From: a virus
Length of the DNA stretch: 15,153 bases
Reading direction: 5' to 3' (one strand)
Virus genome (UHGV): UHGV-0197611
The stretch's first letter is position 1. Every line of letters starts with the position of its first letter. The notes under the pieces are model-generated. The model had not been told where the DNA came from, searched no databases, and saw nothing but the letters and a program-made list of their open reading frames with translations. A program made the translations under genes and the position numbers. Shown here piece after piece: positions 7,040 to 15,153 of the stretch.

Positions 7040-7786
7040 ATGGAGATTCAAGTGACAAAAGAAATTCTTGCTGTTCCTGGGATGCGACCATCCCCATTGT
7101 TCAAAAGGACTTATAAATTAGTTCGGGAGATTGACGAAAGATTAACCAAACTGATTCATAGATGGCGATTTTTCAATGCAGGCCCCCCCATGAAAGTTAC
7201 TGCATATGATGGAACAGAAATATGCTATCAAGGTTTGGCATTTAAAGGTACTCCCGTTCAAATTTTTTGGAATGGTTTTATCGATCCTTACATTGAAAAT
7301 AACTCAGAAATTGTTTTAGAGCAGACCTCCGCGTTAGCAATTGAATGTCAATTCTCAATAGAGGAGTCAATCGAGGAGGCTAAATTACTATTACTTGTGA
7401 TGATTCGCAGGCTTTACTATGAAATGGCCGAAACAGATAAAATATTAAGAGGTGATGGGTTTTCCTTCCCAGAAAAAAAAGACGTTAGTGGTTATATTGA
7501 AAGTATCTCTCAAAAAATCATAGAACATGCTGAAATTGAAAAGCTAAAAAAAACGCATCCAAAACAAAACATATTCAACATAGCTACTGTAAATAGCCAA
7601 TACGTACAACTTGGTACAAATAACAATATTAATATACAAGAGCTCTCTGAGTTCTTCTCAAAAATTGCATCAACTGGTGAAAAAGAAATTATTACTCTCT
7701 CAAAAAACCTTCTTAAGAAGGCCTACTCAAAAAACTTACTGAGTAAAGAAAACTATGAAGCTCTAATATCAAACCTTAACACATAG
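7040..7786 (+). CDS. Hypothetical protein (248 aa), first gene of AT-rich plus-strand cassette
   Basis: Long ORF in a markedly AT-rich segment on the opposite strand to all flanking modules. Its C-terminal region (FNIATVNSQYVQLGTNNNINI...KNLLKK) is paralogous to the C-terminus of the next gene. No strong SD upstream. Confidence 0.72.
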   Translation: MEIQVTKEILAVPGMRPSPLFKRTYKLVREIDERLTKLIHRWRFFNAGPPMKVTAYDGTEICYQGLAFKGTPVQIFWNGFIDPYIENNSEIVLEQTSALAIECQFSIEESIEEAKLLLLVMIRRLYYEMAETDKILRGDGFSFPEKKDVSGYIESISQKIIEHAEIEKLKKTHPKQNIFNIATVNSQYVQLGTNNNINIQELSEFFSKIASTGEKEIITLSKNLLKKAYSKNLLSKENYEALISNLNT

Positions 7787-7845: not shown

Positions 7846-8355
7846 ATGGATCTTAACGTCATGGCATATCCAGAAAAATTCACAATCGCAGGAGTTGAAT
7901 ACAAGGGGAAAAGAAACTCAGCTGAAAAAAAAGTGCTAATCCCTTATACTGAAGAACCAGATATTAATATTGGAGATGAAATCACTCAAAAACTAGGGAA
8001 GGGGGAAATAATATTAAAAGTAATTGATATGTCATTTTTACCAGGAGGTACACTCAATGTTGGTACTAATCACCCTCACATGCTTACATTAAAAGTCGAG
8101 AATCTGACTGCTAATGAACATAAACCAAAACAATCTAGCCAAAATACATTTAACATTGGTAACATATCCGGTACACAGGTTCAACTCGGTGAGCATAACA
8201 ATCTTATTGTAAATCTCAGCATAACTGAACTTGTTGAAAAAGTTTCTCAATCACAAGATCCTCAGGCAAAAAATTTGCTTAAGGATTTACTAAATAATAG
8301 TACGGTAGCCAGTCTCGTTGGTGCTGGTGCGTCCGCCTTGTTAACAATGCTTTGA
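7846..8355 (+). CDS. Hypothetical protein (169 aa), second cassette gene; short hydrophobic small-residue C-terminal tail
   Basis: ATG at 7846 preceded by GAGGAG (7833-7838). Shares the module FNIGNISGTQVQLGEHNNLIV...KNLLKDLL with the upstream protein. Ends in TVASLVGAGASALLTML. Followed immediately by a strong hairpin. Confidence 0.8.
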   Translation: MDLNVMAYPEKFTIAGVEYKGKRNSAEKKVLIPYTEEPDINIGDEITQKLGKGEIILKVIDMSFLPGGTLNVGTNHPHMLTLKVENLTANEHKPKQSSQNTFNIGNISGTQVQLGEHNNLIVNLSITELVEKVSQSQDPQAKNLLKDLLNNSTVASLVGAGASALLTML

Positions 8356-8792: not shown

Positions 8793-9020
8793 CTTCACCT
8801 GTTCACCTTTTGATATTTTATCTTTTAATTCATAAGGTTAAGGGGTGAACAGTTTCACAAAAACTATTCACCAACTGTTCACCACTGTTCACCCTTGAAG
8901 CTCAATAAACAATCAAAAAGGTGAACAGTGAATAGTTTGGTGAACAGTTCATAAATAACTGTTCACCCTATAATATACTGATATAAAAGATATTTATGAC
9001 AGGGTGAACAGTGGTGAACA
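8793..9020. repeat. Iteron array / putative origin of replication (P4 type I-like octamer TGTTCACC)
   Basis: Nine perfect copies of TGTTCACC/GGTGAACA in both orientations (plus strand 8800, 8876, 8886, 8960; complement 8844, 8920, 8939, 9003, 9013), plus degenerate copies (8793, 8865, 8928), interspersed with AT-rich spacers and lying immediately 3' of the replication gene. Confidence 0.8.
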
Positions 9021-9034
9021 GTTATTCCATAAGT

Positions 9035-12390: not shown

Positions 12391-12612
12391 TTACGCCGAT
12401 TTCAGTTGTGCTTTGGGTTGACGATCAAGCCAATCATTAACCTCAGACAGCAACCAACCGACAGAACGAGCCCCCAACTGACGACGGGCTGGAAACACCC
12501 CTTTCCTTTCCATCATATAACGCGTCGTTCGGCAAATACCGGTAAGGCGTCGGCATTCCTCCTCACGAATGATGCGATCAAATTGGTCTTGCGATGATTT
12601 AACTTTGCTCAT
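12391..12612 (-). CDS. alpA: AlpA-family transcriptional regulator (phage/prophage regulatory protein)
   Basis: 73 aa from ATG 12612-12610 (GAGGG upstream), containing ...CRRLTGICRTTRYMMERKGVFPARRQLGARSVGWLLSEVNDWL, which matches the AlpA HTH and SVGW signature. The track ORF extends further upstream. Confidence 0.85.
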   Translation of the reverse strand: MSKVKSSQDQFDRIIREEECRRLTGICRTTRYMMERKGVFPARRQLGARSVGWLLSEVNDWLDRQPKAQLKSA

Positions 12613-12674
12613 ATGGATATGCCCTCGTTTATTATCGTTCGAGAGCATATTGATAATATGCTTAGAATATTTAG

Positions 12675-12705
12675 GTGATATCACATATTTTATATGTGAT
12701 ATCAC
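12675..12705. promoter_or_regulatory. Paired palindromic operator-like sites GTGATATCAC x2 (12675-12684 and 12696-12705), centres 21 bp apart, upstream of alpA
   Basis: Read directly. The second copy overlaps the stop codon of the 245-aa gene. A further palindrome AGCATAT-TGATA-ATATGCT lies at 12644-12662. Confidence 0.5.
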
Positions 12706-13439
12706 GTTCGCCCTAAGTATTTAGCCCACGTATTCTTATCTGTTGCGGGAAGAAACACCCCTTTCATCGCTGCCGCAGCCTCTAAAACAGCGATCACTTT
12801 AGCAACTGGAGCAGTTCCAATATCTATATCATCCATTTCTGGAATTAGTTTGATTAATGCAGGGATCAACTCAGCTTTCTTCGCAAGAGTTTTTGGCGAT
12901 TCTCCCATTTTTCTTCCAGGCATGGTTCCAACATCTTTGATATGCTCCAAATCCTTAGCCATTACACATAAAAACCTTCTGTCGATCTCAATAGCCCCAT
13001 CACTCATAATTTGACATTCCCAGTTTTCTGATTCAGGACGAGTTGAAAAAAAAGATGATACTATCCTTGCATCATTGCCAATAAATTCAAGTTCAGAAAA
13101 ACTTTCCCGATTTAGATAGAAGAAACCGCAAAAATTCTTTGCAAGATAAGAAGCCACACCAAAATAATTTACCCATTCAAAATCGCTACCAACAGGCTTC
13201 ATCCCTGTAATTACCCAGCGATCCCCTTGCAACATCCCTCCAGAATCAACATCAATATTTTCAACTAATGATTTTGGTATAACTAGCGATTTACATGGAT
13301 GACAGTTTGGAAAATAAACAGAAATATTCAAAGCACCTATAGCAGCAAAATGATATATATCATTAAGCGTACATCCCAGCTTCTTTGCTGCTTCAGGCAA
13401 TGGATAATATATACGCTCAGGGATGCTTATCTTTTTCAT
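12702..13439 (-). CDS. Hypothetical protein (245 aa) with N-terminal HTH-like segment; between integrase and alpA
   Basis: ATG at 13439-13437 overlaps the integrase stop (ATGA). N-terminus PEAAKKLGCTLNDIYHFAAIGAL looks like a helix-turn-helix. More AT-rich than int and alpA by eye. Confidence 0.75.
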   Translation of the reverse strand: MKKISIPERIYYPLPEAAKKLGCTLNDIYHFAAIGALNISVYFPNCHPCKSLVIPKSLVENIDVDSGGMLQGDRWVITGMKPVGSDFEWVNYFGVASYLAKNFCGFFYLNRESFSELEFIGNDARIVSSFFSTRPESENWECQIMSDGAIEIDRRFLCVMAKDLEHIKDVGTMPGRKMGESPKTLAKKAELIPALIKLIPEMDDIDIGTAPVAKVIAVLEAAAAMKGVFLPATDKNTWAKYLGRT

Positions 13440-14659
13440 TTCGCTACCTTCAATATTTTTACATTTGAATACTGACCAGAAATAACCTCAAGCCGTTCCA
13501 TCCATTTATTTAGAGCGTCTAGTTTTTCTGGTAAGTACTGGCTACGATTGTATATGGCCATTACACCACCTAATGTGTGACCGAGAAGCTGTTCAACAAC
13601 ATGTGGTGCAATCCCCATGTTATTTAGTGTGGTAGCAAACGTCCTGCGCAGGTCGTGAAGTGTCCACGATTCAATATGCCCCAGACGCTTATATATCATC
13701 CTCCCCCATTGGCTGACAGCTTCTGGTTTCTTTATTTCACCCAACAAAAGACCTGAGTTTTTGTGTTGCTCTATAAGCTGTTGGATGAATGGGCGTATTA
13801 CCACTGGAATAGGGCGCAATATCTTCTCTCCGCCTTTGCTGTGTTCTTTAGGCACTGTCCAGATCCAATCCTTTAAATCCCACTCTGTAATACGTGACAA
13901 CCGAAGCTCCTGGGTTCGACATCCAAACACCACCAATAGACGCAACAACGATGAATAGTATGGTTTAAATTTCTTACCTGAACATTCCTGCCAAATATCT
14001 GCTAACTCTTGACTGCTGTGTTCCCTATCGCGCTTATTCTGTTTTCTACCAACATCATCGATAGTCAGGTCATCCAGAGCATTGCTAACCGCATAACGAT
14101 GTACGCGGCAAAACTTCAGAGCCTGCTTACACATCTGCAGCAAATAACCAGCTGCCACTGGAGCGTCATTCCTTACTCTAGCGAAACACTCCAGCCAATG
14201 CCGGGTTTCGCACATTGATAACGGATAATCACCTATATAGGGGAAAATATGCTTCCTCAGTTGCTCAATGTGTTTATCAACATTCGTGCGCTTGTAAACG
14301 GCGTATTCTCTGATCCAGTAATCCAGAGCCTCTTTTACCGTCACTGGTTTGAGTGTTTCATGTATTGCCACATTTAACCGATGCTTTGGATTTTTACCTT
14401 CAGCAAGCCATGCTCGACACTGTTCACGTTTCTCGCGCGCAGCTTTCAGAGAAAGATCCGGGTAGTTTCCAAGCTTAACACGCTGTGAATACGATTCACG
14501 CCCACCAATCCGGAAAGAGAAATACCAAGTAAGAACGCCAATTTTTGACACCTTGATACTCAATCCATCACCGTCAGCATAAAATCTATCTCTATCGATT
14601 TCCCTCCCCAGCATCTTACGCAACGATGTATCGCTTAATTTGTTCGTTCCTCCAGCCAT
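13436..14659 (-). CDS. int: Tyrosine site-specific integrase (P4-like)
   Basis: 407 aa from ATG 14659-14657 (AAGG upstream); the track start is an upstream alternative codon. C-terminal catalytic signature HDLRRTFAT...LLGHTLGGVMAIYNRSQY and a typical N-terminal arm-binding-like region. Confidence 0.92.
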   Translation of the reverse strand: MAGGTNKLSDTSLRKMLGREIDRDRFYADGDGLSIKVSKIGVLTWYFSFRIGGRESYSQRVKLGNYPDLSLKAAREKREQCRAWLAEGKNPKHRLNVAIHETLKPVTVKEALDYWIREYAVYKRTNVDKHIEQLRKHIFPYIGDYPLSMCETRHWLECFARVRNDAPVAAGYLLQMCKQALKFCRVHRYAVSNALDDLTIDDVGRKQNKRDREHSSQELADIWQECSGKKFKPYYSSLLRLLVVFGCRTQELRLSRITEWDLKDWIWTVPKEHSKGGEKILRPIPVVIRPFIQQLIEQHKNSGLLLGEIKKPEAVSQWGRMIYKRLGHIESWTLHDLRRTFATTLNNMGIAPHVVEQLLGHTLGGVMAIYNRSQYLPEKLDALNKWMERLEVISGQYSNVKILKVAK

Positions 14660-14685
14660 AGAAAACCTTAATTCATATTGAAAAC

Positions 14686-14707
14686 TGACTGCACCACTGA
14701 CTGCACA
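14686..14707. repeat. Int-proximal direct repeat copy 1: TGACTGCAC-C-ACTGACTGCAC-A (two tandem TGACTGCAC units)
   Basis: Identical 22-mer recurs at 14920-14941. Copy 1 lies 27 bp upstream of the int start codon. Confidence 0.75.
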
Positions 14708-14875
14708 CTTTAATATTACCCTATGAACAGAAATGAACAAAGGTAAACTAAAGAAACAACATTAATCATTTTATTCAATAAGTTATATAAACACTAACGA
14801 ACCATGACAAACTGTAAGAAACATAGGTTTTGATAATACGGCATGAACTAATTCAGGTTAGCTAAATGCTTGATT

Positions 14876-14912
14876 AAAAAGGCGCTACTCGGCATGGGGA
14901 AGCGCCTTTTTT
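14876..14912. terminator. Possible bidirectional intrinsic terminator
   Basis: AAAAA - GGCGCT - 14-nt loop - AGCGCC - TTTTTT. The stem is short and the loop long, so stability is uncertain. Confidence 0.4.
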
Positions 14913-14919
14913 ATTAAAA

Positions 14920-14941
14920 TGACTGCACCACTGACTGCACA
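14920..14941. repeat. Int-proximal direct repeat copy 2 (identical 22-mer)
   Basis: Read directly. 234 bp from copy 1, on the far side of the hairpin. Confidence 0.75.
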
Positions 14942-15153
14942 TAAGCACGAACGAAACCGAACAATAATAAATAGAATAGATACCTGCCAGTGGTTATGTC
15001 TCCGCAGTGATGTGTTTTTTCATTTTTAATGGGGATAAAAACGGTGTGGTGAGCGGTCCGGAAGACGCCATGGCAAGAGTTTTGCCCCGCTTCTCCCTGT
15101 GCATGATAGATAACCGAGGGCGGAATTCCGCCTTCGGTGCTCACATATGAGAA

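What the first reader, a model, noticed from the sequence alone, without database searches (positions are those of the whole stretch)
12613..13439. Int-adjacent 245-aa HTH-like protein followed by paired GTGATATCAC palindromes in front of alpA
Directly downstream of int and overlapping its stop is a 245-aa protein. Its N-terminus looks like a helix-turn-helix and its C-terminal two thirds are unrecognisable. Its stop codon is embedded in the second of two identical 10-bp palindromes (GTGATATCAC, centres 21 bp apart, i.e. two helical turns), which sit in the short leader of alpA together with a third palindrome (AGCATAT-N5-ATATGCT). This geometry suggests a dimeric DNA-binding protein controlling alpA, conceptually like a master repressor that senses a helper phage. 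Alternatively it is accessory cargo in an int-proximal hotspot. Either way it is a good candidate for the island's induction switch or for a defence gene.
Basis: partly seen in the sequence, partly recalled or inferred. Interest (0 to 1): 0.6.

Follow-up and report, generated by a model that had tools for sequence, protein, structure and literature searches.

The report
Integrase-coupled regulator with operators before alpA
In this phage-satellite island, an uncharacterised protein made together with the integrase travels with its own pair of DNA palindromes just upstream of alpA (the island's master switch gene), so it is probably a swappable regulator of island induction, though this is untested.

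Summary
A 245-aa ORF (12702-13439, minus strand) overlaps the int stop by ATGA. Two exact GTGATATCAC palindromes lie 21 bp apart, one holding the ORF's stop codon, 62 nt before the alpA start.

- **Setting:** the window is a whole excised capsid-forming PICI that integrates at fis.
- **Conservation:** int, the ORF and alpA keep this order in all 28 distinct related loci. All 25 with the same C-terminal domain carry paired GTGAWWTCAC boxes 20-22 bp apart, with an unconserved spacer.
- **Specificity:** the three with another C-terminal domain carry GGAAWTTCC-type boxes in the same geometry. Islands with 91-99% identical AlpA and 94-96% identical Int, but a DUF6387 gene in the slot, have no boxes. 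The boxes therefore belong to this protein, not to AlpA or Int.
- **Fold:** the N-terminus is an Xis/MerR-like winged helix. Box type, however, follows the basic, orphan C-terminal domain.
a conserved hairpin that sequesters the alpA ribosome-binding site (6 of 9 pairs compensatory).

Best reading: an integrase-coupled DNA-binding gatekeeper of alpA. Whether it represses or activates, and whether it senses the helper phage, is inferred only. The family has no annotation. Its closest positional analogue is the "iolg" gene of Vibrio PICMI satellites.

The parts
13436..14659 (-). int, a tyrosine integrase of 407 aa from the annotated ATG. The mechanical ORF runs up to 14740 from a TTG.
   Evidence: Pfam Arm-DNA-bind_3, Phage_int_M and Phage_integrase. 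RefSeq annotation in L001. Its stop overlaps the next gene's start as ATGA.
12702..13439 (-). X, a 245-aa integrase-overlapping gene. It has an N-terminal Xis/MerR-like winged helix (about residues 10-55), an acidic beta-rich middle domain (56-170), a disordered linker (171-181) and a basic three-helix C-terminal domain (182-245).
12696..12705 (.). Box 1: the GTGATATCAC palindrome that contains the TGA stop of X.
   Evidence: Box 1 is an exact GTGAWWTCAC in 25 of 25 type-1 loci. It holds the stop codon in 23 and starts 4 nt after it in 2.
12675..12684 (.). Box 2: the second GTGATATCAC palindrome, 21 bp from box 1 and 26 nt upstream of the alpA leader hairpin.
   Evidence: Spacing is 20-22 bp in all 25 type-1 loci.
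12675..12705 (.). A 31-bp perfect palindrome (14-nt arms, 3-nt loop) formed by the two boxes plus a palindromic spacer. The extension beyond the boxes is specific to this window.
   Evidence: I2. The RNA fold of the leader gives -34.3 kcal/mol, z = -6.24. The spacer is not palindromic in the other loci.
12644..12662 (.). It is window-specific and overlaps the 5' arm of the alpA hairpin, so it could form an alternative pairing.
   Evidence: I4. Absent from the homologous leaders.
12619..12648 (-). alpA leader hairpin. The 5' arm AUGCUCUCG is 12640-12648 and the 3' arm CGAGGGCAU is 12619-12627. The 3' arm contains the alpA Shine-Dalgarno sequence GAGGG (12622-12626), and the stem ends 6 nt before the ATG.
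   Evidence: Present in every X island and DUF6387 island examined. On 20 distinct sequences, 96.7% of cells are paired, 6 of 9 pairs have compensatory changes, and 0 of 500 shuffles reach this. It is followed by a run of 5-7 T in many loci but not in this window. The empty-slot island L083 lacks it.
12391..12612 (-). alpA, 73 aa, the master activator/excisionase-type regulator of Gram-negative PICIs.
   Evidence: Pfam Phage_AlpA E=1.4e-14. phrog_2790, excisionase and transcriptional regulator. Its role is taken from PMC6092414.

Best explanation
X is a sequence-specific DNA-binding regulator made together with the integrase. Its own paired operator sits exactly where the int-X transcription unit meets alpA.

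**Proposed mechanism**
1. int and X are co-transcribed and translationally coupled through the ATGA overlap. They would be expressed in the quiescent island.
2. X binds as two dimers to the two 10-bp palindromes, which lie two helical turns apart on one face of the DNA. Binding is most likely through its basic C-terminal three-helix domain.
3. The bound complex keeps alpA off. It would do this by occluding an alpA promoter lying in the 26 nt between box 2 and the hairpin, by blocking read-through from int-X, or both.
4. Any transcript that still crosses into alpA folds the conserved hairpin. This buries the alpA Shine-Dalgarno sequence and, in many relatives, also acts as an intrinsic terminator.
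5. On helper-phage infection a signal relieves the block. The acidic, fast-evolving middle domain may sense it. AlpA then auto-activates and drives excision, replication and packaging.

**Status of the steps**
- Shown: the anatomy in step 1, the existence and conservation of the elements in steps 2 and 4, and that the boxes belong to X.
- Inferred: binding itself, which domain binds, the sign of regulation, and step 5.

**Sub-probabilities**
- X binds the boxes: about 0.7.
- This controls alpA: about 0.5.
- Net repressor or insulator: about 0.3.
- Net activator: about 0.2.
For: **Setting.** The island is a capsid-forming PICI at fis. [quoted passage not shown]

**Synteny.**
- An integrase ends at the start of X in all 24 distinct loci where upstream sequence is held. 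In 22 of them it is detected by homology to the window's Int.
- alpA, or in two loci an HTH_17 excisionase-like gene, starts about 90 nt after X in all 28 loci.
- This holds across E. coli, Klebsiella, Serratia, Pantoea and metagenomes, at several attachment sites and with different replication modules.

**Boxes.**
- Paired GTGAWWTCAC boxes 20-22 bp apart occur in 25 of 25 type-1 loci, down to about 31% protein identity, with an unconserved spacer.
- Only GTGA of box 1 overlaps coding sequence, so codon constraint does not explain the conservation.
- Each box is palindromic on its own. Locus L095 carries a within-box double change, GCGATATCGC.

**Specificity.**
- L081 (DUF6387, no boxes), L082 (type-2 X, GGAAATTCC/GGAAATTTCC boxes) and L092 (type-1 X, GTGA boxes) share 91-99% identical AlpA and 94-96% identical Int.
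- Box type follows C-terminal domain identity: at least 45% to the window's for GTGA boxes, 9-27% for GGAA boxes. It does not follow N-terminal identity. L097 is 59% identical at the N-terminus yet has GGAA boxes.
- The C-terminal domain is always net basic and is the most conserved domain.

**Location.**
- There are no further boxes anywhere else in 200 kb of these loci: 1 found against 0.76 expected.
- The boxes lie 2.1 kb from the attP core.
- The distance from box 2 to the hairpin is a constant 24-27 nt.

**Hairpin.** Strong covariation supports it. It occurs only where a slot gene runs straight into alpA, and is absent in the empty-slot island L083.
Against: - No experiment exists, and DNA binding is not shown.
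- The alpA promoter and transcription start are unmapped. The consensus scan finds no sigma-70 promoter on the alpA strand in the leader, and hand-picked -10/-35 candidates are not conserved. Operator-over-promoter is therefore an assumption.
- The boxes lie next to the codons of the C-terminal domain. The link between box type and C-terminal type could therefore reflect physical linkage during module swapping rather than recognition.
- The half-sites are only 6 bp apart, which is unusual for classical helix-turn-helix dimers. The C-terminal fold has no known DNA-binding relative.
- The recognition helix of the N-terminal winged helix lacks the usual basic residues.
- Prototype PICIs with an empty slot are still helper-inducible, so X is not a universal switch.
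- Deleting the positionally equivalent iolg of PICMI115 abolishes excision rather than making it constitutive (PMC10803314). This fits a positive factor better than a repressor.
Confidence: 0.5

Rival explanations
1. X is a positive factor, like iolg of PICMI115. In one version it is a helper-responsive activator that turns on alpA from the boxes. In the other it is a co-factor that works with Int and AlpA in the excision complex, using its Xis-like N-terminal domain.
For: - X has the same position and the same ATGA overlap with int as iolg. Both kinds of element integrate at the fis terminus.
- Deleting iolg abolishes helper-induced excision, and int/iolg supplied in trans restores it (PMC10803314).
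- The N-terminal domain has an excisionase-type fold.
- If the alpA start site lies inside or after the hairpin, the boxes would be centred around -55 and -76, which are activator-like positions.
Against: - The boxes are 2.1 kb from attP, and none lies near the att arms or the int promoter. A role in the recombination complex cannot run through these sites.
- No Vibrionaceae protein appears among the named homologues. Homology to the PICMI IOLG families is therefore not detected, and those comprise 13 unrelated families.
- Islands with DUF6387 or an empty slot carry near-identical Int and AlpA. These can hardly all need X for excision.
Confidence: 0.22
2. X is accessory cargo in an int-proximal hotspot, for example a defence or superinfection-exclusion gene. 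The palindromes are its own terminator or regulatory signal and have no role in alpA control.
For: - The slot is variable: type-1 X, type-2 X, DUF6387 or empty.
- The middle domain is variable, has no known fold, and carries large insertions in relatives.
- Satellites often carry defence genes in variable slots (PMC10085698 and PMC10803314, listed).
Against: - No PADLOC hit.
- Cargo does not explain the strict geometry, with the boxes 24-27 nt from the alpA hairpin in all loci.
- Cargo also does not explain why a second protein type brings a second box type in the same geometry.
- X is always a single gene fused to the int stop, never elsewhere in an island.
Confidence: 0.12
3. The paired palindromes act as RNA, or as a DNA cruciform. 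Box 1 would pair with box 2 to form a stem-loop at the 3' end of the int-X mRNA that terminates or stabilises it, with no protein recognition.
For: - Two identical palindromes are by construction an inverted repeat.
- In this window they extend to a perfect 14-bp stem, and the leader folds at z = -6.24.
- In L096 and L106 the two boxes differ (AAA against TTT) yet remain complementary to each other.
Against: - An RNA stem does not need each arm to be a palindrome, yet box 1 is one in 25 of 25 loci.
- Half-sites GTGA/TCAC are held at sequence level, while the nearby genuine RNA hairpin has drifted through about ten different stem sequences in the same loci.
- In the Klebsiella clade the boxes (GTGAATTCAC and GTGATATCCC) would pair at only 7 of 10 positions.
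- L095 changes both halves of box 2 in a way that keeps its own symmetry but weakens pairing with box 1.
- No T-run follows box 2.
Confidence: 0.08
4. The palindromes are binding sites for AlpA (auto-activation), for Int, or for a host factor such as CRP, rather than for X.
For: - AlpA activates its own promoter in EcCICFT073 (PMC6092414).
- TGTGA/TCACA resembles CRP half-sites.
Against: - Islands with 91-99% identical AlpA and 94-96% identical Int have GTGA boxes, GGAA boxes or none, depending only on the slot gene.
- The half-site spacing of 2 bp is wrong for CRP, which needs 6 bp.
- A host factor would not switch motif when the C-terminal domain of X switches.
Confidence: 0.03

Closest known systems
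iolg (integrase-overlapping gene) of PICMI satellites of Vibrionaceae (Barcia-Cruz et al. 2024, PMC10803314)
   Same: - It is a gene of unknown function lying between int and alpA.
- It overlaps the int stop, most often as ATGA.
- The element integrates at the fis terminus (TACGGCATGAACT).
- The slot is filled by many unrelated families or left empty.
   Different: - No sequence relationship was detected. All named X homologues are Enterobacterales.
- PICMI iolg has no reported DNA motif or domain assignment.
- Its deletion blocks excision, so it is a positive factor, whereas the anatomy here suggests a gate on alpA.
- The host element here is a 15-kb capsid-forming PICI, not a 6-kb minimalist island.
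Stl/Rpr master repressors of SaPIs and other Gram-positive PICIs
   Same: - It is encoded next to int and co-oriented with it.
- Its inferred job is to hold the island's induction genes off until a helper phage arrives.
- It has conserved domains at both ends plus a variable part that could be a sensor.
   Different: - There is no homology. X has no CI-type HTH_3 domain, and no Stl appears among the fold hits.
- X is co-directional with its presumed target, not divergent from it.
- The DNA-recognition module appears to be C-terminal.
- Repression and phage-protein binding are untested.
- X is optional among related islands.
Excisionase/MerR superfamily winged-helix proteins (Xis of phage Pukovnik 4j2n, RdfS 8dgl, BldC 6amk, AlpA-family excisionase 8c3t, MerR regulators)
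   Different: - There is no sequence-level match to the Phage_AlpA, HTH_17 or MerR models.
- The recognition helix has an invariant Asp and His instead of basic residues.
- X lacks the MerR coiled coil.
- X carries 190 further residues of unknown fold.
- Box specificity does not follow this domain.
DUF6387 (PF19924) proteins
   Same: They occupy the same slot, with the same 4-bp overlap with int, upstream of the same alpA hairpin in sister islands.
   Different: - They are unrelated in sequence (hhalign probability 0.7%).
- No paired palindromes follow them.
- Their function is also unknown.

Membership tests
Gram-negative PICI, capsid-forming subtype (the host element) | int at one end, followed by alpA and a primase/replicase, all facing inward. 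The element is about 15 kb. | tested here: met
   Pfam hits for int, alpA and a D5_N/DUF5906/Pox_D5 primase. RefSeq annotation of the identical island in L001. The window is 15,153 bp and closes on an attP.
Gram-negative PICI, capsid-forming subtype (the host element) | It has its own capsid and packaging genes (major capsid, protease, portal, head-tail connector, HNH, small and large terminase) and no tail or lysis genes. | tested here: met
   All of these are annotated in L001 between fis and the primase. No tail or lysis genes are present. The definition comes from 10.1101/2022.09.08.507074.
iolg (integrase-overlapping gene) class of PICMI | An ORF between int and alpA that overlaps int by 1, 4 or 13 nt. 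| tested here: met
   ATGA overlap at 13436-13439. The same arrangement occurs in the homologous loci, with a 14-nt overlap in L116.
iolg (integrase-overlapping gene) class of PICMI | Required in trans for helper-induced excision. | not testable with these tools
   This needs a deletion and complementation in an island-plus-helper strain.
iolg (integrase-overlapping gene) class of PICMI | Sequence membership in one of the 13 PICMI IOLG/ICG families. | tested here: inconclusive
   The PICMI protein sequences are not held here; only locus tags are given in the supplement. None of the named hits among 73 homologue clusters is from Vibrionaceae.
Stl/Rpr-type PICI master repressor | Homology to CI-like HTH repressors or to known Stl proteins. 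| tested here: not met
Stl/Rpr-type PICI master repressor | Binds operators that control the island's induction genes. | tested here: inconclusive
   Comparative genomics ties the paired palindromes at the alpA boundary to X. Neither binding nor the sign of regulation has been measured.
Stl/Rpr-type PICI master repressor | Inactivated by direct binding of a helper-phage protein. | not testable with these tools
Excisionase/MerR winged-helix superfamily (N-terminal domain only) | A beta-alpha-turn-alpha-wing fold that superposes on Xis/MerR structures. | tested here: met
Excisionase/MerR winged-helix superfamily (N-terminal domain only) | A match to the family sequence models (Phage_AlpA, HTH_17, MerR). 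| tested here: not met
   No Pfam hit at E<0.1. The only hit is a weak one to phrog_13283, of unknown function, E=0.0028 over residues 5-52.
DUF6387 | A match to PF19924. | tested here: not met
   No hit for X. Profile-profile probability is 0.7%. The sister-island protein does match, at 6e-30.
Known anti-phage defence systems | A match to a PADLOC-DB model. | tested here: not met
   0 families at E<0.1.

The most novel reading that the evidence does not exclude
X and its operator pair would be the missing phage-sensing switch of a subset of Gram-negative PICIs. In this reading X is a modular, integrase-coupled regulator. A previously unseen C-terminal DNA-binding fold reads two 10-bp palindromes at the alpA boundary. 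The fast-evolving acidic middle domain binds a helper-phage protein. Swapping the whole cassette (type-1 X, type-2 X, DUF6387 or none) re-tunes which phages can induce an otherwise identical island.
Probability: 0.2. Interest if true: 0.75.

Novelty: new variant of a known kind. Interest (0 to 1): 0.58.

Why it matters
**The open question.** How helper phages switch on alpA in Gram-negative PICIs has been open since 2018, as has whether these islands encode any repressor (PMC6092414). The authors of the PICMI study likewise left the role of the integrase-overlapping gene unanswered (PMC10803314).

**What this locus offers.** It provides a concrete, testable cassette:
- a protein family with no annotation;
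- its predicted operator, with a natural specificity swap (GTGA against GGAA boxes) that can serve as a built-in control;
- a conserved hairpin that sequesters the alpA ribosome-binding site.

**If confirmed.**
- It would show that some Gram-negative satellites do carry a dedicated gatekeeper.
- It would show that this gatekeeper is exchanged as a module between islands sharing the same integrase and AlpA.
- It would give a handle for finding the phage-encoded inducers.
- It could also help in engineering PICI-based delivery vehicles with controlled induction.

Tried and rejected
- **Known families for X:** Pfam, NCBIfam and PADLOC gave nothing. PHROGs gave only a weak N-terminal hit.
- **Whole-protein fold searches:** PDB Foldseek and BFVD gave no match with E<=0.001. 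The AFDB library was unavailable.
- **C-terminal domain alone:** the profile against PDB and Pfam gave only noise.
- **X related to DUF6387:** rejected.
- **MS 69-1 as a natural 'slot swap':** hit H20 is a deletion that removed int, X and part of acrE, so it is uninformative.
- **Exact box pair in 185,579 genomes:**
  - 69 loci matched.
  - Most are coding repeats (Gly-Asp-Ile-Thr) or unrelated MAG repeats.
  - The useful ones were L052 and L069 (new X loci) and L034 (a distant relative).
  - L024 has the boxes without X and remains unexplained.
- **A -10 element in the hairpin loop (GATAAT here):** rejected, because the loop hexamer is not promoter-like in other alleles such as CTTAGC or GGCAAC.
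- **A conserved sigma-70 promoter between box 2 and the hairpin:**
  - The scan found none on the alpA strand.
  - Hand-picked candidates (-35 ATATCA inside box 2 with -10 TATTAT) exist in this window but are not conserved.
- **EcCIMP1_002 as a homologue:** it is a different small protein of about 70 aa.
- **Boxes at att sites or at the int promoter:** none found.
Full report
**What the window is.** All genes of the region lie on the minus strand.
- In order they are int (13436-14659), a 245-aa ORF called X here (12702-13439), and alpA (12391-12612). Further on come an Icd-like gene, a DUF4222 gene and a D5-type primase.
- These are followed by a complete capsid and packaging module.
- The same DNA is found at 99.7-100% identity in 19 of 5,426 complete E. 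coli genomes, between fis and yhdJ. It is annotated there as integrase, hypothetical protein and AlpA-family regulator.
- By the published definition this is a capsid-forming PICI (10.1101/2022.09.08.507074) and a 'fis PICI' (PMC10111431).
- The window is the whole excised circle. Its last 317 bases are the sequence that follows fis in the integrated copy. The att identity block TACGGCATGAACTAA lies at 14837-14851.

**Checking the observation.**
- X starts at an ATG that overlaps the int stop as ATGA.
- GTGATATCAC occurs exactly twice in 15 kb, at 12675-12684 and 12696-12705. The second copy contains the TGA of X.
- In this window the spacer is also palindromic, so the two boxes are part of one perfect 14+3+14 inverted repeat.
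- The third palindrome (12644-12662) is real but is not found in any relative.
- The beta-rich middle domain (56-170) and the three-helix C-terminal domain (182-245) match nothing in PDB, BFVD, Pfam, NCBIfam, PHROGs or PADLOC.

**The family and its neighbourhood.**
- A word-indexed search found 17 clusters. A full profile search found 323 representatives at E<=1e-3, of which 96 are at E<=1e-10. Every one that carries a name is a 'hypothetical protein' from Enterobacterales.
- The proteins are modular. They share a conserved N-terminal winged helix (LPERxYYPLxEAAxKLGC..D..H) and have a variable, acidic middle domain with large insertions in some members. They end in one of at least two C-terminal domains: type 1 ends ...TWxKYLGRK, and type 2 ends ...GIKPPVTGSTLADYLKDIELD.
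- I collected 28 distinct loci from genomes, IMG/VR and metagenomes.
- Wherever upstream DNA is held, an integrase ends at the start of X. Wherever downstream DNA is held, alpA (or, in two distant loci, an HTH_17 excisionase-like gene) begins about 90 nt after the stop of X.
- This holds across at least three attachment sites and with different replication modules.

**The palindromes belong to X.**
- All 25 loci with a type-1 C-terminus have two GTGAWWTCAC boxes 20-22 bp apart. Box 1 holds the stop codon in 23 and starts 4 nt after it in 2. The spacer between the boxes is not conserved.
- Only the GTGA of box 1 overlaps coding sequence, so codon constraint does not explain the conservation.
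- The three loci with a type-2 C-terminus have no GTGA boxes. They have GGAAWTTCC-type palindromes with the same roughly 21-bp spacing, and in L082 the same distance to alpA.
- The decisive comparison uses three islands whose AlpA proteins are 91-99% identical and whose integrases are 94-96% identical. L092 has type-1 X and GTGA boxes. L082 has type-2 X and GGAA boxes. L081 has a DUF6387 protein and no boxes at all.
- A second set (L009 against L080 and L084, AlpA 92-94% identical) shows the same.
- The boxes are therefore not AlpA, Int or host-factor sites.
- Box type tracks identity of the C-terminal domain: at least 45% to the window's for GTGA boxes, 9-27% for GGAA boxes. It does not track the N-terminal winged helix. 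L097 is 59% identical to the window at the N-terminus, more than many GTGA loci, yet has GGAA boxes.
- The C-terminal domain is the most conserved domain and is always net basic. The middle domain averages a charge of -10.
- I therefore think the C-terminal domain reads the boxes. The caveat is that boxes and C-terminal codons are physically adjacent and would travel together in any recombination.

**Where the boxes are not.** Across 200 kb of these loci there is one further exact box, against 0.76 expected by chance. None lies near the int promoter or the att region. In the window the boxes are 2.1 kb from the attP core. A role in the recombination complex or in autoregulation at the int promoter cannot run through these sites.

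**Protein site or RNA stem?** Two identical palindromes are automatically an inverted repeat, and in this window they make a strong stem. The leader folds at -34.3 kcal/mol, z = -6.24. I still favour protein recognition, for four reasons.
- Each box is a palindrome in itself in every locus, which an RNA stem does not require.
- The half-sites GTGA/TCAC are fixed at sequence level, while the real RNA hairpin 26 nt away has changed its stem sequence about ten times in the same loci.
- In the Klebsiella clade the two boxes would pair at only 7 of 10 positions.
- In L095 both halves of box 2 changed together (GCGATATCGC). This keeps the box's own symmetry but not its match to box 1.

Both roles could coexist.

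- Immediately before the alpA ATG lies a 9-bp stem with a 12-nt loop (12619-12648). Its 3' arm contains the alpA Shine-Dalgarno sequence.
- On 20 distinct sequences, 96.7% of cells pair and 6 of 9 pairs show compensatory changes. No shuffle or slid register comes close.
- In many relatives the stem is followed by five to seven T and then directly by the ATG, which is a textbook intrinsic terminator. In this window the tail is AUAUCC, so only sequestration of the ribosome-binding site applies.
- The hairpin is kept in DUF6387 islands. It is absent from an island whose int-alpA slot is empty, where the leader folds at z = -0.41.
- Comparing L092, L082 and L081 shows that sequence identity between slot cassettes begins 0-10 nt upstream of the hairpin. 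The hairpin therefore belongs to the alpA module, and everything upstream belongs to the slot cassette.
- My reading is that the hairpin insulates alpA from transcription and translation running in from the int-slot-gene operon.

**How it most likely works.**
- Published work shows that alpA is the master switch of Gram-negative PICIs. It activates itself, its over-expression alone induces the island and harms the cell, and its transcription rises only when a helper phage is induced. The inducer is unknown, and it is unclear whether these islands have a repressor (PMC6092414; PMC11773190).
- Against that background, the anatomy suggests that X is made with Int in the quiescent island. It would bind as a pair of dimers on one face of the DNA at the end of its own gene, and gate alpA there.
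- If the alpA start site lies near the base of the hairpin, giving an ordinary 36-nt leader, box 2 covers roughly -36 to -23. That is a repressor position.
- If the start lies within the hairpin, the boxes sit near -55 and -76, and an activator becomes plausible.
- The scan tool finds no consensus promoter on this strand, and I could not find a conserved one by eye. The sign of regulation therefore remains open.
- The variable acidic middle domain is the obvious candidate for a sensor, but nothing tests that here.

**Comparison with what is known.**
- The closest described thing is positional. It is iolg, the integrase-overlapping gene of Vibrio PICMI satellites. iolg also sits between int and alpA with an ATGA overlap, in elements that also integrate at fis. 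It comes in 13 unrelated families of unknown function (PMC10803314).
- Deleting iolg in PICMI115 abolishes helper-induced excision, and int/iolg in trans restores it. The authors proposed an Int-IOLG-AlpA excision complex. That phenotype is what a positive regulator of alpA would also give, and it is hard to square with a simple repressor. I therefore keep the activator or co-factor reading as the main rival.
- No homology between X and the PICMI proteins could be tested directly. None of the named X relatives is from Vibrionaceae.
- Functionally the model resembles the Stl/Rpr repressors of Gram-positive PICIs. X fails the membership test for that family, because it shows no homology and has a co-directional layout.
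- Only the N-terminal domain can be filed, at fold level, in the excisionase/MerR winged-helix superfamily.

**Verdict.**
- The link between the protein and the palindromes is well supported by comparative evidence.
- The functional claims (binding, repression, phage sensing) are inference.
- The family is uncharacterised, and the cassette structure has not, as far as the searched literature shows, been described. That structure comprises an int-coupled gene, its own operator pair, and an alpA hairpin that sequesters the ribosome-binding site.
- I rate it a new variant of a known kind of system (satellite induction control, or the iolg class). Interest is moderate to good, because it makes a long-standing question directly testable.

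Noticed in passing
window 14837-15153 and 1 onward; L001 3306-3621: The window is a circular permutation of the whole excised island. Its last 317 bases equal the sequence that follows fis in the integrated copy. The fis-terminus att identity block TACGGCATGAACTAA lies at 14837-14851, so the window carries an attP.
   Followed up: partly
window 14682-14707 and 14916-14941: A doubled motif, TGACTGCAC-CAC-TGACTGCAC, occurs as two co-oriented copies flanking the att core. Their near edges are about 137 bp and 72 bp from its centre. They are candidate integrase arm-type sites and resemble the 'doubled motif' geometry reported as unique to helper-embedded PICIs (PMC10111431).
   Followed up: no
window 12619-12648, and the same position in L080, L081 and L084: The hairpin that sequesters the alpA Shine-Dalgarno sequence, often followed by a T-run, is shared by islands with X and with DUF6387 in the slot. 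It is absent from the empty-slot island L083. It may be a general insulator of alpA in this PICI lineage.
   Followed up: yes
L080 2462-3457, L081 2579-3421, L084 2510-3364: In sister islands the same slot, with the same 4-bp overlap with int, holds a DUF6387 protein of unknown function. It is unrelated to X and has no paired palindromes. In L081 a terminator-like hairpin follows it.
   Followed up: partly
window 8938-8958 and 9012-9032: Two copies of TGGTGAACAGTT... lie 74 bp apart, immediately downstream of the primase stop codon. This is where PICI replication origins are reported to lie, so they may be iterons.
   Followed up: no
window 7040-7786 (+) and 7846-8355 (+): Two plus-strand hypothetical proteins lie between the replication and capsid modules, and both hit phrog_5789. 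The first varies between otherwise identical islands (a different protein in MS 69-1). They are candidate accessory cargo.
   Followed up: no
L024 2869-2899 (Trabulsiella guamensis): The exact paired GTGATATCAC boxes occur after a 294-aa Rha/Bro-like ORF in a prophage-like region, with no X homologue nearby. This is unexplained. It may be one of the roughly 1.6 chance matches expected in 596 Gb.
   Followed up: partly
L116 2501-3390: A short X relative (198 aa, reduced middle domain) overlaps a divergent integrase by 14 nt. It is followed by GTGAATTCAC boxes, a hairpin, and an HTH_17 excisionase-like gene instead of alpA. The cassette is therefore not tied to the AlpA family as such.
   Followed up: partly
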